From: a virus
Taxonomy: Duplodnaviria > Heunggongvirae > Uroviricota > Caudoviricetes
Direction: 5' to 3' (one strand)
Virus record (IMG/VR): IMGVR_UViG_3300013902_000267
Length of the DNA: 64,000 nt
The notes under the pieces were generated by a model. That model was not told the origin of the DNA. It did no database searches and saw only the letters and a list, made by a program, of their open reading frames with translations. A program made the position numbers and the translations under genes. This document shows, one piece after another, positions 19,468 to 31,280 of the stretch. Within the stretch, counting starts at the first letter, position 1, and every line of letters begins with the position of its first letter.

Positions 19468-20433
19468 TTAAATATGTTTTCTTTTTAATATTTGAATAAA
19501 TTCATCTTCAGTTATTTGAGCACCTGCTGCACCTTCATGTCCTCCACCATGATAATATTCTTGAAGATATTTACCACAATGGAATTCATGTGTATCTGTA
19601 GGATTATACAATGAAATTGCCCACATACCATCAGGTAATCTCTTAAATACAATACCGTTTTTGATTTTATCTTTACATGTTTTAAATATCTGTGAATTTG
19701 TTGGTTTCTGAATAAACAAAGCACATGCAGATCGATTATCAAATCCTACAGTCCATGTAAAATCACCATATGAATTAATGAGGTTCTTATTGTTTCTATC
19801 AATAATCTCTGATTCTAACTTACCTAATTCTTTAAGTTTCCCTAGTTCACATGCTAATTCTTCTGGTTTTGCTTGATATATTATATAATATACATGATTA
19901 ATAATTTCACTTACATTTAAATCATATTTATTATTAACACCAATGTTTACATATCTACAAAAATCAAAATTAATATTCTCCGCATCATAACTCCAGCTAT
20001 CCCATGCAGACAATACTTTAAACAAATCCGGTATTCTTCCAATAAAATTATACAAATAGCTAAAAGCATTATATAATGCAGAATGATCGATTGTCCTTAA
20101 ACCCTGAATATCGTCAAAATGTAATTCTTTTGAACTATTAATCATAGGCGCATGATGGTCAAACCAATATAGTTTATCACCAAAATGTTTTTTCAGTTTA
20201 AGCATTGTTTCTGCTGTATCAAACGAAATATCTGATATATAAACATAATCATATACACCTATAATATCATTTTGAATATTTAAGTTCTCCATCCCATTAT
20301 AATCTTCACCTAATAGTGTGATCATATTTGGATGTATTCCTTTTTCAATTACAAGAAAATTATATATGATAGCCATCGAAAATAAACCATCATTATCTTC
20401 CTTGTGATATATAATTAAATATTTGTCATCCAT
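19468..20433 (-). CDS. DHH/DHHA1-family phosphoesterase (RecJ/NrnA-like)
   Basis: Motifs present: YHKEDNDG (DxD), WFDHHAP (DHH), GGGHEGAAGA (DHHA1 GGGH). Confidence 0.7.
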   Translation of the reverse strand: MDDKYLIIYHKEDNDGLFSMAIIYNFLVIEKGIHPNMITLLGEDYNGMENLNIQNDIIGVYDYVYISDISFDTAETMLKLKKHFGDKLYWFDHHAPMINSSKELHFDDIQGLRTIDHSALYNAFSYLYNFIGRIPDLFKVLSAWDSWSYDAENINFDFCRYVNIGVNNKYDLNVSEIINHVYYIIYQAKPEELACELGKLKELGKLESEIIDRNNKNLINSYGDFTWTVGFDNRSACALFIQKPTNSQIFKTCKDKIKNGIVFKRLPDGMWAISLYNPTDTHEFHCGKYLQEYYHGGGHEGAAGAQITEDEFIQILKRKHI

Positions 20434-20445
20434 TATATTATTAAT

Positions 20446-20631
20446 TTAATAATTAGTTTTCTGTTTCTCTAACATTTCTATTGCTTTTGCTTGTCTATCT
20501 ACTGTCTCTTGAAGTTGTTCACACTTATATTTGTAATAATGAGCTTCACCAGCTGCAATCAATATACAAACACATGTAAGTCCCAATATATAAATATCAA
20601 GCTTATTAAAAATCTTTTTTATTGTTTCCAT
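20446..20631 (-). CDS. small membrane protein (61 aa)
   Basis: One predicted TM segment. Confidence 0.4.
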   Translation of the reverse strand: METIKKIFNKLDIYILGLTCVCILIAAGEAHYYKYKCEQLQETVDRQAKAIEMLEKQKTNY

Positions 20632-20642
20632 TTAATATATAA

Positions 20643-21344
20643 TTATTTTGATAAAGTACAATTATTAAAGAAAGTACAATATGATATATTAACTATATCA
20701 TTATATATAATTGTATCAACAAGTTCATCATATCTCAAAAGAGATGCTATGAAATTTTTATTATTCTGAAATTTAACACCTGGTTGCAATATCTTCGTTT
20801 CATAATGCATCCATATATTAACATTATTAAACTTATTTTTTAATATATCTATATACTTATGATAATCATCAAATGTATTAAATACACCTTTAAATAATGT
20901 ATCTATTATGTTAATATCATTGAAATCAACACTATTTAATAAATTTAATTCATCTGTATTACATGTTTCATATATTACATTATTATCTTTATCATATGAT
21001 TTTGTATTATATAAAATAAGTTGTATATCCTTTTCAGTTGTATTAATTATTTTTATATTTCTAACTATCAACGGACATGATATAATATATGATATAGGAC
21101 ATAGTATGCAGTTCTTTTTAATATTACTATCAAATATTAATGTAACACCACCATCTGAATATTCTATATCATCTATATTATGAACAATATTAATGTTTAT
21201 ATTATAATCATTCTTTTGTTTCTTTAATTTCAGTATATCATCTTTCCATCTTTTGAATTCTAATTCTCTTTGTTCATTTAGAACCTTTGAACCAACAGAT
21301 TCATTATTTACTATGTTATCAAATTCTTCGTCAAATAAATTCAT
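20643..21344 (-). CDS. hypothetical protein (233 aa)
   Basis: Uninterrupted ORF. Confidence 0.5.
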   Translation of the reverse strand: MNLFDEEFDNIVNNESVGSKVLNEQRELEFKRWKDDILKLKKQKNDYNININIVHNIDDIEYSDGGVTLIFDSNIKKNCILCPISYIISCPLIVRNIKIINTTEKDIQLILYNTKSYDKDNNVIYETCNTDELNLLNSVDFNDINIIDTLFKGVFNTFDDYHKYIDILKNKFNNVNIWMHYETKILQPGVKFQNNKNFIASLLRYDELVDTIIYNDIVNISYCTFFNNCTLSK

Positions 21345-21435
21345 ACCTTTTTAAAATTAATCAATAATTATATAGAAAAATGATGAAAAAGTTATATATT
21401 TTCTTAAAAATATTGATATTTTAACAATAAAAAAT

Positions 21436-21467
21436 GATTCCAGTAGAAGTATACTGGAATCATTAAA
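21436..21467. terminator. terminator hairpin downstream of nrdD
   Basis: AATGATTCCAGTA-gaagta-TACTGGAATCATT immediately 3' of the nrdD stop (minus strand). Confidence 0.5.
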
Positions 21468-21489
21468 ATATTAAAATAAAATAGTTAAA

Positions 21490-21579
21490 TTAAATATTTT
21501 CTTTTGGTAAATAAACACGTGTCTTTTGTTCTTTCTGACGTCCATCAGACCAATTCGAAATTTTAGTTAAATCACAATA
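21490..21579 (-). CDS. nrdD: nrdD exon 6 (approximate)
   Basis: YCDLTKISNWSDGRQKEQKTRVYLPKENI*. Joined to exon 5 it gives RIIG-YCDL...NWSDGRQ, matching the class III RNR RVCGYLG...NFNPGK...RV C-terminus. Confidence 0.5.
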   Translation of the reverse strand, partial: YCDLTKISNWSDGRQKEQKTRVYLPKENI

Positions 21580-21818
21580 TACCCGAACTTTCATTCTATT
21601 TTAAAGGGGTTAGACTATACCACTAACTTCTTGAGTTACATCTTGGTAGTCGTTGAGGGCTTTTATTTGTTTCGTATCAAATAACTATCCCTGCTGATTA
21701 TCCATTGTTATATCATTAGAATTTTTACACTTTGGTATCTAATGCTTTAGGAACTTCCAGCATATTCGATGTTTGCTATATATGTCACCATATATAGGGG
21801 CATTTAATTAAAAATTTA
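21580..21818 (-). mobile_element. group I intron 5 in nrdD (ORF-less, about 240 nt)
   Basis: Minus-strand CTCAACGACTACCAAGATG (R) and GGTATAGTCTAACCCC (S). It splits the glycyl-radical motif between RIIG and YCDL. Confidence 0.55.
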
Positions 21819-22152
21819 CCCGATTATTCTGTCATATAAACTTACATGAACTGATCCACACTTTGGACATACACTAAATGGTGTCTTTGAAATATATCCA
21901 CAATCTTCACATTTACAATTAGGAACATTAAATGTCCAATATTGACAACCATTCTCTGCCGCAAATTTCATAATGTGAACAATCTGTTTCTTAGACAAGT
22001 GCTCTGACAAATTGAGATGCGCTGCTGAACCACCATCCAAAAAATCTCCAATATAGTTCTTACCATGTAAGGTAATCTTATCAAAGATTGACAATGTTTT
22101 ATCATTTGGTTTGAATATGTAAGACGCATACAGGTTAGTGTCTGTTGGTACC
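21819..22152 (-). CDS. nrdD: nrdD exon 5 (approximate)
   Basis: ...NCKCEDCGYISKTPFSVCPKCGSVHVSLYDRIIG is the zinc ribbon plus the start of the glycyl-radical motif. The ORF-track start is TTG. Confidence 0.5.
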
Positions 22153-22191
22153 CAATCAACTCTGTTACATGATTACATAATAATTTTAATA

Positions 22192-22479
22192 TTATTGTTG
22201 AATGTAATCTGATTTATTAATATATTCATTTAGATTTATTAAACCTGCATGAATTTTCCTATGACAATTTGAACATACACATACACATTTTTTTATTTCT
22301 TCATATAGTTTTTCTTTACCTCTCCCTCGATGTTTACCTATTGTAAAATCTTTTTCATTTGGATCTATATGATGAAAATCTATACAACATGGTTCATATT
22401 CACTACATATTATACATGGATTCTTTAATGAATATAACCATTCTGTTTTTCTTTTTTGTGAACGCTTATTTTTGTTCAT
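22192..22479 (-). CDS. small HNH endonuclease (95 aa)
   Basis: CIICS...FHHIDP...CSNCHRKIH HNH / zinc-finger motif. Confidence 0.6.
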   Translation of the reverse strand: MNKNKRSQKRKTEWLYSLKNPCIICSEYEPCCIDFHHIDPNEKDFTIGKHRGRGKEKLYEEIKKCVCVCSNCHRKIHAGLINLNEYINKSDYIQQ

Positions 22480-22612
22480 TATGTATTTCAGGATGTGCTT
22501 TTCTCATCTATTTCCTATATAATTTTCTACATTCTTTACATACTGCACGTCCTTTTTCAAACATTTCTATAGACAATTCTTTACCACATTTATTACATAT
22601 TTTTGTTGTCAT
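22466..22612 (-). CDS. small zinc-ribbon ORF (48 aa, 1 in-frame TAG), possibly an N-terminal extension of the HNH protein
   Basis: MTTKICNKCGKELSIEMFEKGRAVCKECRKLYRK(Q)MRKAHPEIHNEQK. It overlaps the HNH start in another frame. Confidence 0.3.
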
Positions 22613-22912
22613 ATATATTAAATTATGTTTTATTATTTATCACCGGAACATGACAAAAATAACATAACCCAATTATATTAATAAACGCTTAATTATTTCT
22701 AATCAAGTCTCTATGTTACCATAGAGTTCGGACTATTGCATAGTTTTGTTTCACAACAAAACTCCTTTTTATTTAGTCTCTCAGGCTGCCCATAACATTG
22801 TTGTTATTGCTTGCCCCTCGTTATCCTTACTACCGGTACCTAAGGTAATAAAATGTAAGGAACTTCGAGTCAATTAAAAAAGGTTTTACATGGACATTGT
22901 TATTGTTGTCTA

Positions 22913-23395
22913 TCCATCTTCAGAATCCCAATTATAATTCTTTATTGCCAAACTTTCAGCTGGTATACATTCAGTATTGAACGTTAACTTATGACCGTTA
23001 AATGTACCTGCAGCTTCTTGATTCTTTTGCTTTATATATCCAAATATTGTTTGACAAAGTTTTTCATAATGAGGATTTACATTACAAGTAATTCCTAAGA
23101 ATTCTGCCATTTGATTAAGACCATTCAAACCAATTGTTAAATATTGCTTATTCAAATTAATAAACCCTGCTTTATATACAGGTAATAATCCTGCGTCATA
23201 CATATCCCAAAGAAGTTCATTATATGCTGTATGATATTTATATACTCTATCAAGAATATTACCAAAATATTCGCACATATCATCATAATGCTCTTCTACA
23301 TTTTCTTTTGTTACTCCAGATTTCTTAACACTGTTAAACCAGTCTTGAGTTATGCGACTAAGATTCAGGGTTATCACACTTTTACTTCCTGTTTG
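22913..23395 (-). CDS. nrdD: nrdD exon 4 (approximate)
   Basis: ...RKRQTGSKSVITLNLSRITQDW...LNKQYLTIGLNGLNQMAEFLGI...FNTECIPAESLAIKNYNWDSEDG. The exon ORF stops at a TAG beside the intron. The ORF-track start is GTG, not a true initiator. Confidence 0.5.
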
Positions 23396-24600
23396 ACGTT
23401 TTCTCCATATATTTCTATATGGTCCGGGTCATATCTTATGTTTATTTAAATAATAAACATTGCACTATTTCGGCATTTAAAACGATTCGTTTCCTAAAAC
23501 GTTACTACGTATCAATAGTAGTCCTACTCCACCTGCTCATCACTTAGGGGATGACCTCCACACACATTAATAATTTTTATATGTTCTACCTATTAACATA
23601 TTCCTAAAATTATTCATTAAATAATTTTTATATTTACCGATTTTTAATTCTTCAATAGATTTGCCATTATTATATTGTTCTCTTAAATAAACAACTTCAT
23701 CTTTAGATAACAATGGTAACTTCTATTTACATTTATCAGTTCTAATAGGCATTTTTACATGCATATATGATTTTCCAAATAATATTTTATTAAATCCACT
23801 CCATGAATATAAATTACTATATTCTTTAAAAATATCATCTTCTTTTTCACCATTTACAAAATATCTTATTCTTATGTTTAATACTTCTTCATCAGATAAA
23901 TTCTTAGAATTTGCATGCATATTTCCTCTACGTGTTCTTCGATCTGATTTATAAAAATCATTTACTTTATCTGTATTATATTCTATACCAATTTCAGGTC
24001 TTGTATAATAATGCCAATATTTTGAAAATCCACTTTTTGACATTCTATCTTTATACATTTCATATACTTCTCCAAAAGTATATTTCATAGAATAACGTAT
24101 TTTTCTTAATTCTAATAATTCATTATCATTTAATATTGCTTTGGGATGCTCCTCCCCAACTTTTATTATAGTTGCAGAATGTCCACCCAATGTAGAATTA
24201 TATCCATTATTATAACTATCATATAATTTAATGTAATATATTTCTTTATTATCAGCTTCATCCTAATTAGGAACATTATCTTCTAATATTGAAAAATTTG
24301 ATTCATTAATATTATATTTTCTCATTGCTCTATATAATTTATAATCACTATGTTTCATATCATTTAAATGTTCTCTTACTCTTATATGATAATGATGTGT
24401 CTACCCAATATATACTTTTCCATTAGGAAATGATATTTTATAAATTGTAAATATTTTATTCATATATTATAAATGTAAAATTATAACATATTTATATTAA
24501 CTTGGCTCGGTATTACCATGCATATAGTTTCACAACTTATGTTTAGGCTTCACCGATGCATTAATATCGCTATATTAATACATTGCTTGATTAGCAATTA
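23396..24600 (-). mobile_element. group I intron 3 in nrdD, carrying a GIY-YIG endonuclease ORF
   Basis: R-like GGAGTAGGACTAC and S-like AAGATATGACCCGG on the minus strand near 23425-23530, 3' of the ORF. Confidence 0.5.
23723..24463 (-). CDS. GIY-YIG homing endonuclease (246 aa), 2 in-frame TAG
   Basis: N-terminal IYKISFPNGKVYIG(Q)T...RVREH GIY-YIG motif, with a TAG inside the YIGxT block. C-terminal GEEHPKAILNDNELLELRKIRY DNA-binding module. ORF 23723..24190 is only its C-terminal part. Confidence 0.65.
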
Positions 24601-25440
24601 AGCACATAAAGGACCCAAGTTGATCCCTAAATTTCCATTTGTGAAGTTGAATTCCTTTGTTTGTATCTTATTCTTAAGTCTGCAGTTATGTGTTATATTT
24701 CCATTAGGCATTAAGAAATATGGTTCAAGATTCTTATCGCAGAGTTCTACACAATAATAATCTTTTGGTTCATCAAGATTTACAACTTCAACCTTTGTAA
24801 TTTTTCTTATAACAATGTCTTGATCTACATCTTTAAAATCATTTCTAAACATACCCATATATTGTCCATACTCAAAGATAAGTTGATCTCCTGTTTGAAG
24901 CAAATATGCTTGCTTATCTTTAATCATCTTATCATCATCAATAATAGGGAATATATGATCCGGTGTAACTCTCATTACATTTCGTGATTCATCCGGATTA
25001 AAATCGTCTGGAGCGAAATAAATTCTTACTTCTTGAACTGCTTCTGCTTTTACAAACTTAGCATTTACCCATTCACCTGTACATTTACCTGTTGTACCAT
25101 TAAAATTCATATGATATACATTAATAATTTCATCCTTATGCTTTTCATATGCATTTTTAAATGACTCAACCATATATGCGTTTGAACCTGCGTTTTCTTC
25201 CATATTACAAGGTTCTACATACATGAATGGAGTATCACCATCGAAACAACAACTTGATAATGAATCAACTGTATCTGACATATATGTAAAGAATGAATGA
25301 CCTCTTGCATATTCATCCGCCACAAAATCTGCAGATTCCTTATCAAGGAATTCTCCATCCTTATATACTAATGCGAAACTTTCCCATTTATATTCTATAT
25401 AGTTCGTTACACTATATACGTTCATAATAATGAACTGCTT
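24601..25440 (-). CDS. nrdD: nrdD exon 3 including a mini-intein (approximate boundaries)
   Basis: ...GHSFFTYMSDTVDSLSSC, then the intein, then CRLKNKIQTKEFNFTNG... Removing the intein reconstitutes SCCRL. Confidence 0.5.
24685..25248 (-). mobile_element. mini-intein (188 aa) inserted at the nrdD SCCRL active-site motif
   Basis: Begins with Cys1 in CFDGDT (intein block A). Ends ...DYYCVEL...PYFLMPNGNITHN (blocks F and G, terminal HN), immediately followed by extein Cys (CRL). No endonuclease domain is visible. Confidence 0.6.
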
Positions 25441-26214
25441 TATGTTACCATAAAGATTAGACTATATCACAATCCTATAAATATAGGATTCTCCCCATTT
25501 CCACTCACTTGAGTGTACTTCCTTTCGGAATAGTCGTTGAACCTTATTATATAAATGAATATTTATGACCATAATATAATCTATTTGCATTTATCGATTT
25601 TACTAATCCTGATATACATGCAGTTCCTCCAATATTTTTAATAACTTCGGACATTGATGAATATATTATATTATTATCTAAACATTTTATTTTCTTTGGA
25701 AACGTTTTTCCCTTCATCGTATTACCAAATGTTTTAATAGAATATAATTCATTCTCTGATTGTGTGCACCATTCTAAATTATCTACTCTATTATCTGATC
25801 TATTACCATTTAAATGATTTACAAATGGTTTATTTTCAGGATTTGGTATAAATTCTTGAGCAACAAGTCTATGACATAAATATCTAGTTTTAATAGAATT
25901 TTGCATTAATGATATTCTTAAATAACCATCTAATGTATATTCTACTTTTAATGGTTTACCTTTATACGGACGTAATCCACCCCATCTACAAGGCACCATT
26001 CTATCTTTACTTCTGAAATTACCTAAATTACTAACTTCAAATGCGCCATCATATCCTGTTATACTTTTCCAAATTTCTTCCATAATATTCTCTTATATAA
26101 TCTTGGTTGCTGATTATCTAATAACTTCGCATATTTATTAGAGTTCCCAGCAGTTAAAGGAGTTTTTCAATAATAAATTACTTTATTATGCCGCAGATTG
26201 ATTTACGGGGAAGG
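25441..26214 (-). mobile_element. group I intron 2 in nrdD, carrying an HNH endonuclease ORF
   Basis: R-like GTTCAACGACTATTCC and S-like GTGATATAGTCTAATC on the minus strand at 25450-25535. Confidence 0.55.
25547..26083 (-). CDS. HNH homing endonuclease with NUMOD4-like N-terminus (178 aa)
   Basis: WKSITGYDGAFEVSNLGNFRS (NUMOD4-like). NHLNGNRSDNRVDNLEW is an HNH_3-type motif. Confidence 0.65.
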   Translation of the reverse strand: MEEIWKSITGYDGAFEVSNLGNFRSKDRMVPCRWGGLRPYKGKPLKVEYTLDGYLRISLMQNSIKTRYLCHRLVAQEFIPNPENKPFVNHLNGNRSDNRVDNLEWCTQSENELYSIKTFGNTMKGKTFPKKIKCLDNNIIYSSMSEVIKNIGGTACISGLVKSINANRLYYGHKYSFI

Positions 26215-26452
26215 TGATTATCGTACGAAGACGTTCCTTATTAAACCATATCATGAAGTCTTTCTGTAACCATGAAACACTTTCCCAACATGGTCTTGTT
26301 CCTTCTTCATCAGGAAATACAAATTCACCAAACATACCTTCAAAGAACGGTTTATCAAAATAAGAGAAATTTACAACATTTTTTCTTCTACATAAATCGT
26401 TACTTTATGTACGTTACTATTTGTAACTGCTCTATGATTTCCATAGACGATT
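26215..26452 (-). CDS. nrdD: nrdD exon 2 (approximate)
   Basis: Open frame ...NVVNFSYFDKPFFEGMFGEFVFPDEEGTRPCWESVSWLQKDFMIWFNKERLRTIITFPV between two intron cores. Confidence 0.4.
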
Positions 26453-27839
26453 AACGAATTTCACGTTAAAAGGGTTTGTTTAAACCGTTTAGACTATATC
26501 ACCAAATTTAATTTTCTTAAATTTGCACCTACACTTCCATAACACTTGTTATGTACTCTACTAACTCATTTAAAGTTTTCGATAGTCGTTGAACTTTTAT
26601 CCTTGTAGGATAATTAGCTGCGTATGATTACCCAATCTTTATCGTTTTTACAATCTGATAGCCGTTATACTATCTGCTACTATCTATGTTACCATGATAT
26701 GCTGTAGATAAAGCTCTAAGGGACTTCCCGCAATTCAAGGTGTTTATTAACGTCAGCACATGTAATTTCTCTTATAATTTAATTATTACCAAAATTATGT
26801 ATTTTATACATGTGACAATTTTTACAATATGTTATAAGATTATCTATGTTATTAAGTTCTTTATTTTTTATCGCTAAATTAAATAATTCATCAAAATTAT
26901 CAGTAGGATTTAATTCTGGATGTTCTGATAATAAATTATGAAATAATATTTTAAATGGAACTATATGATGAACTTGAAGATTTTCATGACAACCGCATAG
27001 CTAACAAGTATTATGATCTCTCTCTATAACTTCTGGAACTAATCGATTAAAATATGTTCTTATTTTATTACCTAATCTTGTAGTATCTGTTGTATATGGA
27101 ATATTAGTAATATTTAAACTATTTAATACTCTATTAATTACAGCTATTGTACAATTATATCTCCGTGCCAATTCTGTTTTTGATATTGACTATTCAATAT
27201 ATAAATTATATAATTTTTTATAATCATTAAAATCTTCTGGTATTTCTTTTTTATGATAATTCCACATAGATTCTGCAAAAGTACGTCTTTTAATCCCATT
27301 ATGTTTTAAATGACTTCTTATAGTAGTTGCTGAACAGTTAAATATTTTACCTATTTCTACTGTAGATTTACCATCATTATATAATTTTATTATTTCCTAA
27401 TCATTTGTATCATCATATTGTTCATAAACTTCATAATTAGTATTTTTTATATTATATTTTTTAAAATATCTATTAATAGTACCTTTATGACATTTATATA
27501 TTTCTGAAATTTCTTTCATTGTTAAACCATTATTAACATAATTTATTAAATCTTCTTTTTTAATTATTAATTTAGATTTTTCAATATTCCATTTTCTTAA
27601 ATATTCTTTAATATTTGCTAATGTTGTATTTCCTTCTTTAGCACACTATTTTCGTGTTAAACCTTTAATAACATAATTTTCATATAACCAATCTCTATCT
27701 TTTGTAAAATATCTATAATTAGACATAATTTCAGATATGTAAAATTACATACAGGATTATGTAATTTTTAATTTATTTTAGTTTATGCTGACTATAATCC
27801 TCTGGAGGCCGCAGGTTGGTTAATTGAATACACGACCTA
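26453..27839 (-). mobile_element. group I intron 1 in nrdD, carrying an HNH homing endonuclease ORF
   Basis: Minus-strand AATTGCGGGAAG (P element), GTTCAACGACTATCG (R) and GGTGATATAGTCTAAAC (S) lie 3' of the ORF. Confidence 0.6.
26779..27726 (-). CDS. HNH homing endonuclease (315 aa) with repeated HTH modules; 4 in-frame TAG
   Basis: C-terminal C(Q)LCGCHENLQVHHIVPF...NLITYCKNCH HNH motif, where the first CxxC includes a TAG codon. Three GxxxxEIxxxxxxxxxTI HTH-like repeats. ATG at 27726, TAA at 26779. Confidence 0.65.
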
Positions 27840-28901
27840 TTGAAAGAATTGTTGAATACATGAACCAATAGTTCTTGTACCATCACCTATCTTAATAGGA
27901 TTCGTAAAATCTTTTATTGAACCTTCAACATCATATTGTGATAATTCTTTCTCATATGCTTCAAGTTCTTCATCTGTTAACTCTCTTTCTGAATTATAAA
28001 CAAGTTCATCACGAAGTTTGTTTAATTCGTCTGAACCAAAATCATGTTTTCTCAATGTATCTACATCTTTACACCAATAATTAGATTCATTAAGAAGTTT
28101 CCTATATTTAGGCCCAATCTTATAAAATTCTTTACTATGCAAATGATAATCTTCACCAAACTCTTTTCTTGCAAAATAATCAAAATAAACAAGAAATTCC
28201 GATGTTGCAACTGCACCTGCAAATTGAGCAGCAACTGCAAATACAAGATTTACATACATACCACAATAAGAATCAAGATTTTGTGGATGACATGAAAGAC
28301 CTCCTATTTTTTCTAAACCATTATGAAGGAATGGATACATAGTTATACTTGTGCAATACGGACTTATGGCACCAGCGAAGCTAGACTCATCGTTCTTATA
28401 TATAATATGGTTTTTTAAATCTTTTTGATATTGTTTTGCTTTAAAATTTGGATATAGTTCTTTAAGTTTCCTTGTAATCATACCTCTGCTTACAAGAATA
28501 TTATCAGCTTTATGAATTTCAGCATTTAATACACCGATATTCTTAGAAGAAACATTAGAATTATCATCTACAGTACTATTTGCAGTATTAGATGCATTCT
28601 TATATCTTTCAATAAATGCTTCCTTATTAGCAACCCATTCTCTAATTTCCTTTTTCTTGTTACGATAAAGAATAAATTCTTTCGCAACTTTAGGATAATC
28701 ATGAGAATACAAACTTGTTTCAATTTGATCCTGTATTTCCTCTACAGGAATACCATCATATGGTGTTATTGAGTTTGCAATATTAGCTATAGTATCTTTA
28801 GTATACTTAGTTTTCGTAGACTTAAACGCCTCACGAATCGCTCGTTTAACTGTCTAAACACTATAGTTCTCAAAACTACCATCACGTTTCGTTACCTTCA
28901 T
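27840..28901 (-). CDS. nrdD: nrdD exon 1 (approximate 3' boundary)
   Basis: ATG at 28901. ATP-cone, then the YCTSITMYPFLHNGLEKIGGLSCHPQNLDSYCGMY region. Contains in-frame TAG. The exon ORF closes at a TAG next to the intron. Confidence 0.55.
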
Positions 28902-29038
28902 ACTTAGTTTTCTTTCTATTTTATTTTTGGTAAAATATTTATTCTCGACTATGAGAATTTTTCAAAATATTATTTTATATATTATATAAAAAAATGCAAA
29001 TGAAGTCTTATAACAAACATCATTTGCATTAAAATATT

Positions 29039-29758
29039 TTAATTATTTTTAAAAATTTTTTCTTTCCAATAATTAAAGTCAATATCTTTGATTTGATATT
29101 GAATTAAATTTCCAGTTAATACATCAGAAAGTTTTACAGGTTTATAATCATTTCCATCAACACCAACATCATATGTCATTGCTTTTTCTTTTAATTTCTT
29201 AGCAATATTTGCATCTGTACCTGTATATGTTTCAACATTCTTTGGTGTATGCAGATGTCCATGTATATTGAACTTTCCTAAAAATTGACCATCACAATGT
29301 GGATAATGTGAAACTGTAAATTGAAGAATTATTTTATCTTTATAATCGTCATATATTTGTACAATAAGTTCTGTACTCCAATATACTTTACTATTCTCAT
29401 TATATGGCATCATATTCCTTCTTTGCAATACATTCTTTACATCATGATTTCCAATAATATTATAAATCTTTTCAGCATTAATATTATTAACCATTTCATC
29501 ATATGTACTTACATTACTAAATATAAAATCACCACAATTTATAAGTATTGGATTAACGCATTCAGATAAAGTTTCATTAAGATTATCAAATAAAACTTTA
29601 TTCATTTCTTGTACATCTTTAAATGGTCGATTACAATATTTTATTATATTTGCATGATTTGCATGTATATCACTAGTAAAAAATATTCTATTTATATCAG
29701 ATACTTTAAACTTTAATATATGCGGCCCCATTACTACTGTTTTCTTTTCTTGCTTCAT
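29039..29758 (-). CDS. calcineurin-like metallophosphoesterase
   Basis: Motifs DIHANH, GDF, GNHD, HGHLH. Confidence 0.65.
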   Translation of the reverse strand: MKQEKKTVVMGPHILKFKVSDINRIFFTSDIHANHANIIKYCNRPFKDVQEMNKVLFDNLNETLSECVNPILINCGDFIFSNVSTYDEMVNNINAEKIYNIIGNHDVKNVLQRRNMMPYNENSKVYWSTELIVQIYDDYKDKIILQFTVSHYPHCDGQFLGKFNIHGHLHTPKNVETYTGTDANIAKKLKEKAMTYDVGVDGNDYKPVKLSDVLTGNLIQYQIKDIDFNYWKEKIFKNN

Positions 29759-29761
29759 TAT

Positions 29762-30016
29762 TTACCAAAATCCCCTTTTATAATCTTCATATTCTACATA
29801 ACATCTTTCTACATTCCTAAATAGAATTTTAAAATAACGTGGAAGTTCATCATACATTAATGCTAAACATTGATCTACACTTAATGGATCAACTATATAT
29901 TCATGTCCAGATAATTCCCAACATTTAGTTATAAGTTTTGCTTCACTTTCAACATAATCACACATAAATGGAGCAATCCATATATTACCAGAGTTCTTAA
30001 TTGTTACAATTCTCAT
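29762..30016 (-). CDS. hypothetical protein (84 aa)
   Basis: Uninterrupted ORF. Confidence 0.45.
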   Translation of the reverse strand: MRIVTIKNSGNIWIAPFMCDYVESEAKLITKCWELSGHEYIVDPLSVDQCLALMYDELPRYFKILFRNVERCYVEYEDYKRGFW

Positions 30017-30018
30017 TA

Positions 30019-30822
30019 TTACATATTTCTAAATGAAGTTTTTGGATCAAAACCTGCATTTATAATTTTTGTTTTATTATCAGGTAAGCATTCAGGTTCT
30101 TTCTTTGTTTCCCAAAGAAAATTCTCTATATCTATATAAACATTCTGTTCATTCGTTATTCTACTTCTATTTGAACCTAATACATCAAACTTTTGTTTTA
30201 CAAATATAGGATTAATTGTTAATCCTGCATTACCATCAAGATAGTGAGAAATATCATCTGATTCATTAGCATACATAAAAGTAGGTGATTCAAGCTTTCT
30301 GAATATATCTGGATTCTCTATTTTCCAACTTTGTTTTTCAAATTCAAATTTAGGAATATACCACCTACTATTTCTATCATACAATTTATCAATATGAAGC
30401 TTTTCTCTTAATCCATTTTTCTTACAATATTCATCAAATTTACATTGGACCTTATTATAAATTTTATCCCACAAATTCTTATCATGTACATATTCTTCAG
30501 CAACTGGTATAGGATTTAATTCAATAGGGACATATGTATTTCTTGTAATTTTATGCATAATTACATAAAATGGACATATATAGATATAAGGATAAAATCC
30601 ACATACAATAGATTCCATCCATGCTACATAATCTTCTTTAAATCCATATGTATGAAAATAAAGATGTCCATAATCATGAATTTCCTTTATAATAGATTTA
30701 TATTTTTTATCATCTTTATCTATTTGTATAGGATTACGTACATAGGTAATACTTTCATCTGGTTTACCAAGAATAAATCCAAATGAATCATAAAAATCCT
30801 TATATTTTGATACTATTTTCAT
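30019..30822 (-). CDS. hypothetical protein (267 aa)
   Basis: Uninterrupted ORF. Confidence 0.5.
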   Translation of the reverse strand: MKIVSKYKDFYDSFGFILGKPDESITYVRNPIQIDKDDKKYKSIIKEIHDYGHLYFHTYGFKEDYVAWMESIVCGFYPYIYICPFYVIMHKITRNTYVPIELNPIPVAEEYVHDKNLWDKIYNKVQCKFDEYCKKNGLREKLHIDKLYDRNSRWYIPKFEFEKQSWKIENPDIFRKLESPTFMYANESDDISHYLDGNAGLTINPIFVKQKFDVLGSNRSRITNEQNVYIDIENFLWETKKEPECLPDNKTKIINAGFDPKTSFRNM

Positions 30823-30827
30823 AATGA

Positions 30828-31280
30828 TTAAACTTTCATTTCTTTGTTAGATTCTGCAATATAAAGTTTCATATGTGTAAATATCATATATCCCCTATAT
30901 ACAGTATCTAAATTTTCATTTTCGTAAAAATGCTTTACTGCATTCTTCCTTTGTTCTTCACGTATTTCATCTATTCCTCTCCATTGAGATTCAGACCTAT
31001 ATGTATATTCATTAAATTTAAATCCATATGAATATTGTTCATATAAATCATTATTTAGTTTTCGAACGTGATTATATATATTTTCCCAAAGTTTCTTATC
31101 TATCCGTTTATTTGCATTCATAAAAAGATAAATCATGTCATAATTATCTTCTATATATGTAGCAAATGTTTCTTTAATATATGGCTGAAATTCTTCATAT
31201 GGATGATGTTTCTTTGGACGACCTCGTTTTCTTTTAACCGGTTGTTCAATAATTTCTTCAGTATCTTTAATTTCTTCCAT
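30828..31280 (-). CDS. hypothetical protein (150 aa)
   Basis: Uninterrupted ORF with a basic KRKRGRPKK segment. Confidence 0.45.
   Translation of the reverse strand: MEEIKDTEEIIEQPVKRKRGRPKKHHPYEEFQPYIKETFATYIEDNYDMIYLFMNANKRIDKKLWENIYNHVRKLNNDLYEQYSYGFKFNEYTYRSESQWRGIDEIREEQRKNAVKHFYENENLDTVYRGYMIFTHMKLYIAESNKEMKV

What the first reader, a model, noticed from the sequence alone, without database searches (positions are those of the whole stretch)
24685..25248. Mini-intein inserted exactly at the catalytic SCCRL motif of NrdD, within an intron-split exon
Within exon 3 the sequence ...DSLSSC | CFDGDT...(188 aa)...NGNITHN | CRLKN... has Cys1 and block A at the start and blocks F/G with terminal His-Asn at the end. 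A Cys +1 follows. Excision reconstitutes the conserved SCCRL active-site motif. No endonuclease domain is present, so it is a mini-intein. The gene therefore depends on both RNA splicing and protein splicing.
Basis: partly seen in the sequence, partly recalled or inferred. Interest (0 to 1): 0.75.

Follow-up and report, generated by a model that had tools for sequence, protein, structure and literature searches.

The report
Mini-intein in Lak megaphage NrdD
A 188-residue self-splicing protein element (a mini-intein) sits between the two essential active-site cysteines of the anaerobic ribonucleotide reductase of Prevotella megaphage Lak-B7, in a gene that is also cut by five group I introns. 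It is a real but fairly ordinary new example of a known kind of selfish element.

Summary
The window is Prevotella phage Lak-B7, and the gene is nrdD, which encodes the class III ribonucleotide reductase.

- **The segment.** It runs CFDGDT...NGNITHN, between Cys-1 and Cys+1. Intein-less NrdDs that are 70-84% identical read DSLSSCCRLKNK straight through this point.
- **The fold.** An AlphaFold model (pLDDT 85.5) matches only inteins/HINT domains in the PDB. The best match is the Pho RadA mini-intein (E 8e-10, TM 0.69-0.78).
- **Catalytic residues.** C1, T95-x-x-H98, H187, N188 and C+1 are invariant in relatives whose inteins are only 45-51% identical, while their flanking extein is 84-100% identical.
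- **Selection.** Intein dN/dS is about 0.15.
- **No endonuclease domain.** A GenBank gut-phage record carries a 353-residue LAGLIDADG intein at the same site, so the Lak element looks like a reduced derivative.
- **Intron context.** It holds and is larger than described. Intron-less alleles in other Lak genomes define five group I introns. The gene also has three in-frame TAG (Gln) codons.
- **Oddities.** Curated intein HMMs miss it (Pfam 26.5 bits against a cut-off of 35.8). It also has Cys at block F position 4 and Thr at block G position 5, a class-3-like signature alongside a normal Cys1.

Verdict: a new member of a known kind, of moderate interest.

The parts
24685..25248 (-). Mini-intein, 188 aa (precursor residues 476-663): CFDGDT...NGNITHN
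   Evidence: Translation. AlphaFold model with pLDDT 85.5. Foldseek PDB: top 49 hits are all inteins/HINT domains. Pfam Intein_splicing E 6e-6, below threshold.
25249..25251 (-). N-extein residue -1, Cys. Equivalent to T. maritima C329, the first Cys of SCCR.
   Evidence: PMC4493059.
24682..24684 (-). C-extein residue +1, Cys. It is the splicing nucleophile and the equivalent of the thiyl-radical Cys (Tm C330 / T4 C290).
   Evidence: PMC4493059.
25216..25248 (-). Intein block A (CFDGDTPFMYV) with Cys1
   Evidence: Invariant C1, F2, G4, T6. Aligns with CFPGDTRILV of the Pab PolII intein.
24946..24972 (-). Intein block B (RVTPDHIFP): Thr95 (B:7), His98 (B:10), Phe100 (B:12)
   Evidence: Aligns with RVTPTHPF of the Pab and Pho CDC21 inteins.
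24712..24762 (-). Intein block F (DYYCVELCDKNLEPYFL) with invariant Cys166 at position F:4
   Evidence: Aligns with DYYGITLSDDSDHQFLL of the Sce VMA intein.
24685..24705 (-). Intein block G (NGNITHN): Thr186 (G:5), His187, terminal Asn188
24623..25384 (-). nrdD exon 3 (762 nt, of which 564 nt are intein)
   Evidence: Contiguous with its neighbouring exons in Lak-C1. Junctions.
27785..28901 (-). nrdD exon 1 (ATP-cone and N-terminal NrdD), with three in-frame TAG=Gln codons at 28854-28856, 27837-27839 and 27792-27794
   Evidence: Lak-A1 has Gln codons at two of the three TAG positions.
26377..27784 (-). Intron 1 (1408 nt), carrying an HNH plus HTH homing-endonuclease ORF at 27726-26779 with 4 TAG=Gln codons
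   Evidence: Absent from Lak-A1. ORF and Pfam HNH_2/HTH hits.
26205..26376 (-). nrdD exon 2
25385..26204 (-). Intron 2 (820 nt), carrying a NUMOD4 plus HNH_3 endonuclease ORF at 26083-25547
   Evidence: Absent from Lak-C1, Lak-A1 and Lak-A2. Pfam. Rfam Intron_gpI 29.3 bits, E 2e-5, below threshold. Its 3' core is 81-85% identical to unannotated stretches of Staphylococcus, Bacillus and Enterococcus phage genomes.
23397..24622 (-). Intron 3 (1226 nt), carrying a GIY-YIG-like endonuclease ORF at 24463-23567 with 3 TAG=Gln codons
   Evidence: Absent from Lak-C1. ORF and Pfam GIY-YIG at E 1.7e-4, 22.2 bits, just under the 22.6 cut-off.
22912..23396 (-). nrdD exon 4
22157..22911 (-). Intron 4 (755 nt), carrying a 95-aa ORF at 22479-22192 with paired CxxC motifs
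   Evidence: Absent from Lak-B3 (which is otherwise 99% identical), Lak-C1, Lak-A1 and Lak-A2. The 95-aa ORF has no Pfam hit, so reading it as HNH-like rests only on its sequence motifs.
21818..22156 (-). nrdD exon 5 (zinc ribbon, ending ...LYDRIIG at the glycyl-radical Gly)
21573..21817 (-). Intron 5 (245 nt, no ORF), which splits the Tyr codon after the glycyl-radical Gly
   Evidence: Absent from Lak-A1, Lak-A2 and Lak-C1. Rfam Intron_gpI 24 bits, E 3e-4, below threshold.
21490..21572 (-). nrdD exon 6 (YLTKISNWSDGRQKEQKTRVYLPKENI, then a TAA stop)

Best explanation
Window 25248-24685 (minus strand) encodes a canonical, cis-splicing, endonuclease-less HINT-fold mini-intein. It is inserted in frame between the two adjacent essential cysteines of the NrdD SCCR(L) motif of Prevotella megaphage Lak-B7.

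**Proposed pathway (inferred).**
1. The nrdD pre-mRNA loses five group I introns.
2. The 985-residue precursor is translated, with three TAG codons read as Gln.
3. The intein folds and splices by the class 1 route:
   - Cys1 makes an N-S acyl shift onto the Cys(-1) carbonyl, assisted by Thr95 and His98.
   - Cys+1, the future thiyl-radical cysteine, attacks that thioester to form the branched intermediate.
   - Asn188 cyclises with the help of His187 and releases the intein.
   - An S-N shift leaves ...DSLSSC-CRLKN... in a 797-residue NrdD.
4. NrdG can then activate the mature NrdD.

**Origin (inferred).** Lacking a homing endonuclease, the element is an immobile, vertically inherited remnant of a LAGLIDADG intein family that targets this same site. 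It persists because only exact excision restores the active site.

**What is shown:** the insertion, its boundaries, the fold, the conserved catalytic residues, purifying selection, and the intron-less and intein-less comparators.
For: - **Boundaries and frame:**
- **Uninterrupted homologues:** intein-less NrdDs at 70-75% identity (P0016, P0017, P0024, P0040, P0043) read DSLSSCCRLKNK uninterrupted. crAss-like phage cr116_1 is 84% identical and contiguous across the junction. Every Lak genome shows a two-piece match split there.
- **Mature protein:** after in-silico RNA and protein splicing, the 797-aa product matches Pfam NRDD as one stretch (272 bits). It also scores 667.5 bits on NCBIfam TIGR02827, above the 568.3 cut-off.
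- **Fold:** AlphaFold pLDDT 85.5, pTM 0.80. The top 49 Foldseek PDB hits are all inteins/HINT, led by the Pho RadA intein at E 7.8e-10, TM 0.69-0.78. BFVD hits are intein-bearing viral proteins.
- **Sequence:** Pfam Intein_splicing hits 8 of 9 family members, best E 2.8e-6. With the wider family profile, 13 of the 16 listed PDB matches are inteins, E 0.002-1.
- **Conservation:** C1, T95, H98, C166, T186, H187 and N188 are invariant across inteins 46-51% identical, while 84-100% of the flanking extein residues are identical.
- **Selection:** dN/dS is 0.15 for the intein against 0.05 for the exon-3 extein, Lak-B7 versus Lak-A1, Lak-A2 and Lak-C1.
- **Same-site relatives:** P0144, P0149, P0151 and P0039. 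GenBank MT835492.1 has a 353-aa intein with a LAGLIDADG_3 domain at SSC|C...THN|CR.
- **Essential cysteines:** PMC4493059.
Against: - No experiment or transcript/peptide data show splicing.
- Curated sequence models do not call it. Pfam gives 26.5-26.7 bits against a gathering score of 35.8. NCBIfam gives no intein hit at E <= 0.1.
- Block F position 4 is Cys, not the Asp typical of class 1 inteins (PMC4031507), so the details of catalysis may differ.
- No intein-less Lak allele exists to show recent mobility. All 15 Lak records carry it.
- No nrdG was found in the window, but that test was weak.
Confidence: 0.88

Rival explanations
1. It is a splicing intein, but with non-canonical or conditional chemistry.
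- The invariant block-F Cys166, paired with Thr186, might act as in class 3 inteins and form a block-F branched thioester, either alongside Cys1 or as a back-up.
- Alternatively, the four clustered cysteines (-1, 1, F:4, +1) might form disulfides that block splicing under oxidising conditions. Maturation of the oxygen-sensitive NrdD would then be gated by redox state.
For: - Cys at F:4 and Thr at G:5 are invariant in all NrdD-inserted members, including distant ones (P0144, P0149, P0151, MT835492.1). Free-standing homologues have Gly at F:4.
- F:4 was assigned by alignment to the Sce VMA block F.
- The class 3 signature is Trp B:12, Cys F:4, Thr G:5. The W67F mutant of the MP-Be DnaB intein still splices partially (PMC2807308).
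- Disulfides between active-site cysteines are known to make intein splicing redox-sensitive (PMC4031507).
Against: - Cys1, Thr B:7 and His B:10 are all present and invariant, which is enough for the class 1 route.
- B:12 is Phe, not Trp.
- +1 is Cys, whereas all but one of the class 3 inteins identified in PMC2807308 have Ser or Thr.
- Structural neighbours are class 1 archaeal mini-inteins. Class 3 structures (6bs8, 6rix, 6zgq) rank 32nd and lower.
- Grafting WCT onto a class 1 intein did not give class 3 splicing (PMC7664689).
- No coordinates were available to measure Cys-Cys distances.
Confidence: 0.15
2. It is a dead intein, and the Lak nrdD is a decaying pseudogene burdened with selfish elements. 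No functional NrdD is made.
For: - The gene carries five introns, an intein and recoded stops.
- Some phage RNR genes riddled with inteins are thought to be degenerating, for example Campylobacter phage nrdA (PMC3653736).
- No nrdG was seen in the window.
Against: - The reading frame is intact through all six exons and the intein.
- Extein dN/dS is about 0.05 and intein dN/dS about 0.15.
- Every splicing residue, the glycyl-radical motif RIIGY and the four zinc-ribbon cysteines are conserved in Lak-A, Lak-B, Lak-C and more distant metagenomic relatives.
- The spliced product passes the NCBIfam equivalog cut-off.
Confidence: 0.04
3. It is a HINT-type domain that does not ligate. Either it stays in the protein as an insertion, or it only cleaves, as bacterial intein-like domains do, giving a two-piece NrdD.
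For: Free-standing homologues of this HINT domain exist that cannot be splicing out of NrdD (P0138 family). Split RNRs are known in phages (PMC3653736).
Against: - The element has the full intein set, including the +1 nucleophile and the terminal His-Asn. BIL domains lack the +1 nucleophile, and type B BILs also lack intein block G (PMC4031507).
- It lies between two adjacent residues that are both essential, in a motif conserved in uninterrupted homologues.
Confidence: 0.03

Closest known systems
LAGLIDADG-containing intein at the same NrdD SSC|C site in an unannotated human-gut phage record (GenBank MT835492.1; also metagenomic P0151)
   Same: Same insertion point (DSLSSC|C...ITHN|CR). Same block A (CF..DT) and the same block F/G signature (VYC...PYF.LP.G.ITHN). 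Pairwise E is 2e-7 for the C-terminal and 5e-4 for the N-terminal splicing regions. Its ORF also stops right after RIIG, as at intron 5 in Lak-B7.
   Different: It is 353 aa with a LAGLIDADG_3 endonuclease domain (Pfam 25.1 bits, cut-off 22.5). The Lak element is 188 aa with no endonuclease. Identity outside the splicing blocks is low.
Archaeal class 1 mini-inteins with solved structures (Pyrococcus horikoshii RadA intein 4e2t; Pab/Pho CDC21-1 6rpp/6rpq; Pab PolII 2lcj; TvoVMA 4o1s)
   Same: HINT fold (TM 0.6-0.78). Cys1, TxxH block B, terminal His-Asn, 168-185 residues, no endonuclease.
   Different: Only 12-17% sequence identity, and different host proteins. The Lak intein has an extra helix-containing segment (about residues 12-40) and Cys instead of Asp at F:4.
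Intron plus intein coincidence in phage ribonucleotide reductase genes (B. subtilis SPbeta nrdE; Brochothrix phage A9 nrdE; Lactococcus phage 949 and Clostridium phage c-st nrdD; Jug jumbo gut phage nrdD)
   Same: A phage RNR gene interrupted by both group I introns with homing endonucleases and an intein (PMC3653736; PMC12880540).
   Different: Here there are five introns plus the intein plus TAG recoding in one nrdD, in a Lak megaphage. No held paper describes this: a search for 'Lak phage' together with 'intein' found only papers on other phages. I could not compare insertion sites in the published cases.
Class 3 inteins (mycobacteriophage Bethlehem DnaB, Msm/Mch DnaB-1, AceL NrdHF)
   Same: Cys at block F position 4, Thr at block G position 5 (the THN ending), and a phage association.
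   Different: Has Cys1, Phe instead of Trp at B:12, Thr at B:7, and Cys+1. Structural similarity is lower than to class 1 inteins.

Membership tests
Intein (HINT superfamily, class 1 splicing) | HINT fold | tested here: met
   AlphaFold pLDDT 85.5, pTM 0.80. The top 49 Foldseek PDB hits are all inteins/HINT, best E 7.8e-10, TM 0.69-0.78.
Intein (HINT superfamily, class 1 splicing) | N-terminal nucleophile (Cys/Ser/Thr at position 1) in block A | tested here: met
   Cys1 in CFDGDT, invariant in the 8 relatives aligned.
Intein (HINT superfamily, class 1 splicing) | Block B Thr-x-x-His | tested here: met
   T95-P-D-H98 is invariant. It aligns to block B of the CDC21, VMA and PolII inteins.
Intein (HINT superfamily, class 1 splicing) | Penultimate His and C-terminal Asn (block G), followed by Cys/Ser/Thr at +1 | tested here: met
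   ...ITHN|C. H187, N188 and C+1 are invariant.
Intein (HINT superfamily, class 1 splicing) | In-frame insertion in a conserved host protein; homologues lack it and excision restores the conserved sequence | tested here: met
   Intein-less NrdDs read DSLSSCCRLKNK. The spliced product matches NRDD as one stretch and passes the TIGR02827 cut-off.
Intein (HINT superfamily, class 1 splicing) | Block F Asp at position 4 | tested here: not met
   Cys166 occupies F:4. [quoted passage not shown]
Intein (HINT superfamily, class 1 splicing) | Score above curated family thresholds (Pfam PF14890; NCBIfam intein models) | tested here: not met
   PF14890 gives 26.5-26.7 bits against a gathering score of 35.8, E about 6e-6. 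No NCBIfam intein model hits at E <= 0.1.
Intein (HINT superfamily, class 1 splicing) | Demonstrated protein splicing (ligated exteins plus free intein) | not testable with these tools
   Needs expression or proteomics. Purifying selection (dN/dS 0.15) is only indirect support.
Mini-intein | No homing-endonuclease domain between blocks B and F | tested here: met
   188 aa. No LAGLIDADG or HNH Pfam hit. The whole model is one HINT domain aligning to 168-174-aa mini-inteins. The same-site relative has a LAGLIDADG_3 domain.
Class 3 intein | No Cys/Ser/Thr nucleophile at position 1 | tested here: not met
   Cys1 is present and invariant. Definition from PMC2807308 and PMC7664689.
Class 3 intein | Trp at block B position 12 | tested here: not met
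   Phe100, invariant within the Lak-type family and in 11 of the 12 wider relatives.
Class 3 intein | Cys at block F position 4 and Thr at block G position 5 | tested here: met
   C166 and T186 are invariant in NrdD-inserted members.
Class 3 intein | Block F branched thioester intermediate | not testable with these tools
   Biochemical assay needed.
Bacterial intein-like (BIL) domain | Lacks the +1 nucleophile and occurs in variable, non-conserved proteins | tested here: not met
   Cys+1 is present, and the host is a highly conserved enzyme active site.
Class III ribonucleotide reductase NrdD (host protein) | Full-length match to the curated NrdD model, with ATP-cone, SCCR cysteines, zinc ribbon and the C-terminal glycyl-radical motif | tested here: met
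   After in-silico splicing: TIGR02827 667.5 bits (cut-off 568.3), Pfam NRDD 272 bits, ATP-cone 65 bits. CxxC...CxxC and RIIGY are present.
Group I introns (context) | Precise absence in close relatives, with an uninterrupted reading frame | tested here: met
   Each of the five is missing from at least one other Lak genome.
Group I introns (context) | U before the 5' splice site and a terminal G at the 3' end | tested here: met
   True of all five junctions. This is a weak criterion.
Group I introns (context) | Rfam RF00028 above its gathering score | tested here: not met
   Intron 2 scores 29.3 bits and intron 5 scores 24 bits, against a gathering score of 50 (E 2e-5 and 3e-4 in short-range scans). 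The 11-kb scan found nothing. Introns 1, 3 and 4 were not scanned individually.

The most novel reading that the evidence does not exclude
The intein is not a neutral parasite but a redox or anaerobiosis gate. Four cysteines converge on the splice site: Cys-1, Cys1, the family-specific invariant Cys at block F position 4, and Cys+1. Splicing might therefore proceed only in a reduced cytoplasm, possibly through a class-3-like block-F thioester despite the presence of Cys1. The oxygen-sensitive glycyl-radical NrdD would then be completed only when it can work. That would be a natural hybrid of class 1 and class 3 chemistry with a physiological role.
Probability: 0.12. Interest if true: 0.65.

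Novelty: new member of a known kind. Interest (0 to 1): 0.4.

Why it matters
- **Annotation.** The GenBank Lak records carry no annotation. Standard gene calling (code 11, no splicing) breaks this nrdD into fragments. This report gives a complete gene model: six exons, five group I introns, three TAG=Gln codons and one mini-intein. It shows the megaphage does encode an intact anaerobic RNR.
- **A missed intein family.** The intein belongs to a small, divergent, phage-borne family dedicated to the NrdD Cys-Cys site. Only 23 hits turned up among 1.8 billion representative proteins. Curated HMMs miss it, so it is a useful seed for better intein detection.
- **Possible tool.** It is compact, starts with Cys1 and ends with THN, and has a Cys-1/Cys+1 context with an unusual block F cysteine. 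That makes it a candidate for protein-engineering or mechanism studies.
- **Biology.** It adds one more case of selfish elements piling up in RNR active sites. That principle has been established since SPbeta and T4.

Tried and rejected
- **Rfam over 11 kb.** A permissive scan of 20000-31000 found no group I intron. Only short-range scans gave sub-threshold hits, so the intron calls rest mainly on intron-less alleles.
- **Narrow PDB profile.** A profile of the Lak-type family alone gave chance sortase hits at E about 0.07 and only one intein. Adding distant members was needed.
- **NCBIfam.** No intein model hit. The only match, LnsA, is spurious.
- **Word-indexed protein search.** Searching with the intein returned only Lak-like NrdD fragments. 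The exhaustive profile search was needed to find same-site inteins in other NrdDs.
- It was dropped.
- **nrdG.** tblastn of the window with two distant NrdG sequences found nothing. This is inconclusive.
- **Unavailable paper.** Tori & Perler 2011 (PMC3133030), on class 3 inteins that begin with Cys or Ser, is not held. That point rests on the remark in PMC2807308.
- **Rejected: native NrdD insertion.** Homologues lack the segment.
- **Rejected: class 3 intein.** It has Cys1 and lacks Trp at B:12.
- **Rejected: BIL domain.** It has the +1 nucleophile.
- **Not done.** I could not measure Cys-Cys distances, because model coordinates are not exposed.
Full report
**Source and orientation.** Window 21500-29000 is 100% identical to Prevotella phage Lak-B7 (MK250026.1). 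It is 99-100% identical to the other Lak-B genomes, and 86-90% identical over the matched parts of Lak-A and Lak-C. None of these records carries annotation. The gene concerned lies on the minus strand. Mechanical ORFs with NrdD similarity are scattered between 21816 and 28712 and alternate with endonuclease ORFs.

**Checking the observation.** They are preceded by ...TVDSLSSC and followed by CRLKNKIQTKEF. T. maritima NrdD (4coi) aligns with the upstream extein up to ...DSIDAVASCC and stops there.

**Gene model.** Other Lak genomes serve as natural intron-minus controls.
- Lak-B3, otherwise 99% identical, lacks 22157-22910.
- Lak-C1 joins 22911-23396 directly to 24623-25383 and then to 26205 onward.
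- Lak-A1 joins 26205-26376 to exon 1.
- Lak-A1, Lak-A2 and Lak-C1 all lack about 21573-21802.

Reading the junctions gives six exons: 28901-27785, 26376-26205, 25384-24623, 23396-22912, 22156-21818 and 21572-21490. The five introns are 1408, 820, 1226, 755 and 245 nt long. Every 5' splice site follows a T and every intron ends in G.

Four of the introns carry ORFs:
- Intron 1: HNH plus HTH.
- Intron 2: NUMOD4 plus HNH_3.
- Intron 3: GIY-YIG-like.
- Intron 4: a 95-aa ORF with paired CxxC motifs and no Pfam hit.

Rfam's group I model gives only sub-threshold hits: intron 2 at 29.3 bits (E 2e-5) and intron 5 at 24 bits (E 3e-4), against a gathering score of 50. The 11-kb scan gave none.

Exon 1 contains three in-frame TAG codons. 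Lak-A1 has Gln codons at two of those positions, which fits TAG being read as glutamine. The Jug phage paper notes that Lak phages use an alternative genetic code (PMC12880540). That the code is code 15 (TAG = Gln) is my own recollection of the Lak literature, not something I checked in a paper.

The precursor is 985 aa. With the intein removed it is 797 aa. That product matches Pfam NRDD in a single stretch (272 bits), has an ATP-cone, and passes the NCBIfam equivalog TIGR02827 (667.5 bits, cut-off 568.3). The zinc-ribbon cysteines and the glycyl-radical motif RIIGY are intact. However, the first 14 and last 8 residues of the mechanical ORF 24598-25425 are intron sequence.

**Is the 188-residue segment foreign to NrdD?** Yes.
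- A search with the intein-free sequence returned thousands of NrdDs. The best full-length ones are 70-75% identical and read ...TYISDTVDSLSSCCRLKNK(V/I)QTKEFNFTNGN... without interruption.
- Among GenBank phages, crAss-like cr116_1 is 84% identical and contiguous across the junction. All 15 Lak records give a two-piece match split exactly at SSC|C.
- Lak-like metagenomic relatives have the same insertion. Their inteins are only 45-51% identical to the Lak-B7 intein, while 84-100% of their flanking extein residues are identical. The change in conservation falls at the predicted boundaries.

**Is it a HINT domain?**
- Pfam Intein_splicing matches the C-terminal half at E 6e-6, below its gathering score (26.5 against 35.8 bits). 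Eight of nine family members behave the same way.
- NCBIfam intein models do not hit.
- An AlphaFold model built on eight family sequences is confident (pLDDT 85.5, pTM 0.80).
- Its 49 best Foldseek matches in the PDB are all inteins or HINT domains. They are led by the Pyrococcus horikoshii RadA mini-intein (E 7.8e-10, TM 0.69-0.78) and followed by the CDC21, TFIIB, PolII, VMA, DnaE, DnaB, RecA and Hedgehog domains.
- BFVD matches are intein-bearing viral topoisomerases, terminases, polymerases and RNRs.
- A wider sequence profile hits PDB inteins directly (E 0.002-0.1) and gives explicit block alignments: CFdgkt with CFPGDT of Pab PolII, irVTpdHifpv with IRVTPTHPFFV of the CDC21 inteins, and dvYciklkdeespyfllpngvithn with DYYGITLSDDSDHQFLLANQVVVHN of Sce VMA.

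**Catalytic residues and selection.** C1, T95, H98, H187 and N188 are invariant, and every intein-bearing relative retrieved has Cys at +1. Between Lak-B7 and Lak-A1, Lak-A2 or Lak-C1, the intein has dN 0.115, dS 0.77 and dN/dS 0.15. The exon-3 extein has dN/dS 0.05. The intein is therefore under purifying selection, about three times weaker than on the enzyme. This is what one expects of an element that must fold and splice but has no other job.

**The insertion site.** In T. maritima NrdD the motif is 328-SCCR-331, aligned with 288-MGCR-291 of T4. That makes the second Cys the counterpart of the T4 thiyl-radical Cys290. C329A and C330A are each inactive (PMC4493059). The Lak intein separates these two cysteines and uses the radical cysteine as its +1 nucleophile. 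Without exact excision and ligation the enzyme cannot be active.

**Mini-intein, and where it came from.** The segment has no endonuclease domain (188 aa, one HINT domain, no endonuclease Pfam hit). The exhaustive profile search found only 23 relatives among 1.8 billion representative proteins. They include inteins at the same site in other NrdDs:
- P0144: DSLSSC|CFDYNT...VITHN|CRLKN.
- P0149, a distant 885-aa NrdD: AMC|CFDGAQ...IVTHN|CRFSN.
- P0151, P0039 and P0014.

In each of P0144, P0149 and P0151 the Pfam NRDD match resumes at profile position 259. GenBank MT835492.1, an unannotated 121-kb human-gut phage scaffold, has a 353-aa intein at SSC|C...ITHN|CR with a LAGLIDADG_3 domain above threshold. 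Its splicing blocks resemble the Lak ones. The simplest reading is that a LAGLIDADG intein family homes to this site, and that the Lak lineage keeps an endonuclease-less derivative. All 15 Lak genomes carry it, whereas each of the five introns is absent from at least one Lak genome.

**Mechanism.** I commit to canonical class 1 splicing, as set out in the best explanation. All residues needed for it are present and conserved. The activity itself is inferred.

One feature deserves mention. Position 4 of block F, usually Asp in class 1 inteins, is an invariant Cys (C166), and block G position 5 is an invariant Thr. This holds in every NrdD-inserted member of the family, including the distant ones, while the free-standing homologues have Gly at F:4. 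Cys F:4 and Thr G:5 are two-thirds of the class 3 'WCT' signature (PMC2807308; PMC7664689). However, the element has Cys1, has Phe rather than Trp at B:12, has Cys+1, and sits structurally closer to class 1 inteins. It therefore fails the class 3 definition. Whether Cys166 is a spare nucleophile, a redox partner for the three other junction cysteines, or merely a tolerated substitution cannot be decided here.

**Comparison with what is known.** Inteins and group I introns in RNR genes are commonplace. RNRdb had curated more than 100 group I introns and about 80 inteins from its entries (PMC2795772). Known cases include:
- T4 nrdD, which has a mobile intron (PMC2988022).
- SPbeta nrdE, which has both an intron and an intein.
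- Brochothrix phage A9 nrdE, which has three introns and an intein.
- Clostridium phage c-st and Lactococcus phage 949 nrdD, which have putative inteins (PMC3653736).
- Jug jumbo gut phages, whose nrdD is fragmented by introns, endonucleases and Intein_splicing domains (PMC12880540).

I found no paper describing this for Lak phages. The finding is therefore a correct and well-bounded new member of a known kind. Two things are a little unusual: how many layers of interruption one gene carries, and how divergent the intein is.

**Verdict.** Confidence that this is a genuine, splicing-competent intein is about 0.88. Interest is moderate (0.4).

Noticed in passing
window 21573-21817 (minus strand): A fifth, ORF-less 245-nt intron splits the Tyr codon right after the glycyl-radical Gly (RIIG|YL). 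Lak-A1, Lak-A2 and Lak-C1 lack it. Without it the mechanical ORF appears to end at RIIG*. The NrdD ORF of GenBank MT835492.1 (L008) also stops right after RIIG, which suggests the same intron site there.
   Followed up: partly
window 28854-28856, 27837-27839, 27792-27794; intron ORFs 27726-26779 and 24463-23567: In-frame TAG codons occur in nrdD exon 1 (3), in the intron-1 HNH endonuclease (4) and in the intron-3 GIY-YIG-like endonuclease (3). Lak-A1 has Gln codons at two of the nrdD positions. A DNA-metabolism gene and its homing-endonuclease genes therefore both depend on TAG being read as Gln.
   Followed up: partly
window 21573-27784 compared with L001-L004: The intron content of nrdD differs between Lak genomes. 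Lak-B7 has five introns. Lak-B3 (and, judging by the same 90% coverage, Lak-B5 and Lak-B6) lacks intron 4. Lak-C1 keeps only intron 1 and Lak-A1 only intron 3. Lak-A2 has intron 3 plus a different insert at the intron-1 site. The intein is present in all 15 genomes.
   Followed up: yes
L006 5001-5633 (ENA ERZ28612944 scaffold_82, 150 kb) and L007: A free-standing 210-aa ORF is homologous to the Lak intein. It has Cys after a 6-residue leader, TPNH in block B and Gly at F:4, and it ends ...ISHD|SSVVDC. It lies 33 nt upstream of an uninterrupted MGCR-type nrdD followed by nrdG in another gut phage. Several such ORFs exist (P0140, P0141, P0146, P0147, P0150). What a stand-alone HINT domain next to nrdD does is unexplained.
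   Followed up: partly
L008 1951-5139 (GenBank MT835492.1): An unannotated human-gut phage scaffold encodes an NrdD with a 353-aa LAGLIDADG intein at the same Cys|Cys site. It is probably the mobile form of this intein family.
   Followed up: partly
window 25428-25555: The 3' core of intron 2 is 81-85% identical at the DNA level to unannotated stretches of Staphylococcus (CF5, qdsa001), Bacillus and Enterococcus phage genomes. This suggests a group I intron lineage shared across very different phage hosts.
   Followed up: no
L006 1-155: The same crAss-like contig carries a DNA methylase gene with precomputed Intein_splicing and Hint_2 hits, so it is another intein-bearing gene nearby.
   Followed up: no
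whole window: No NrdG activase was detected in the 64-kb window by tblastn with two distant phage NrdG sequences. The test was weak, and the gene may lie elsewhere in the 551-kb genome.
   Followed up: partly
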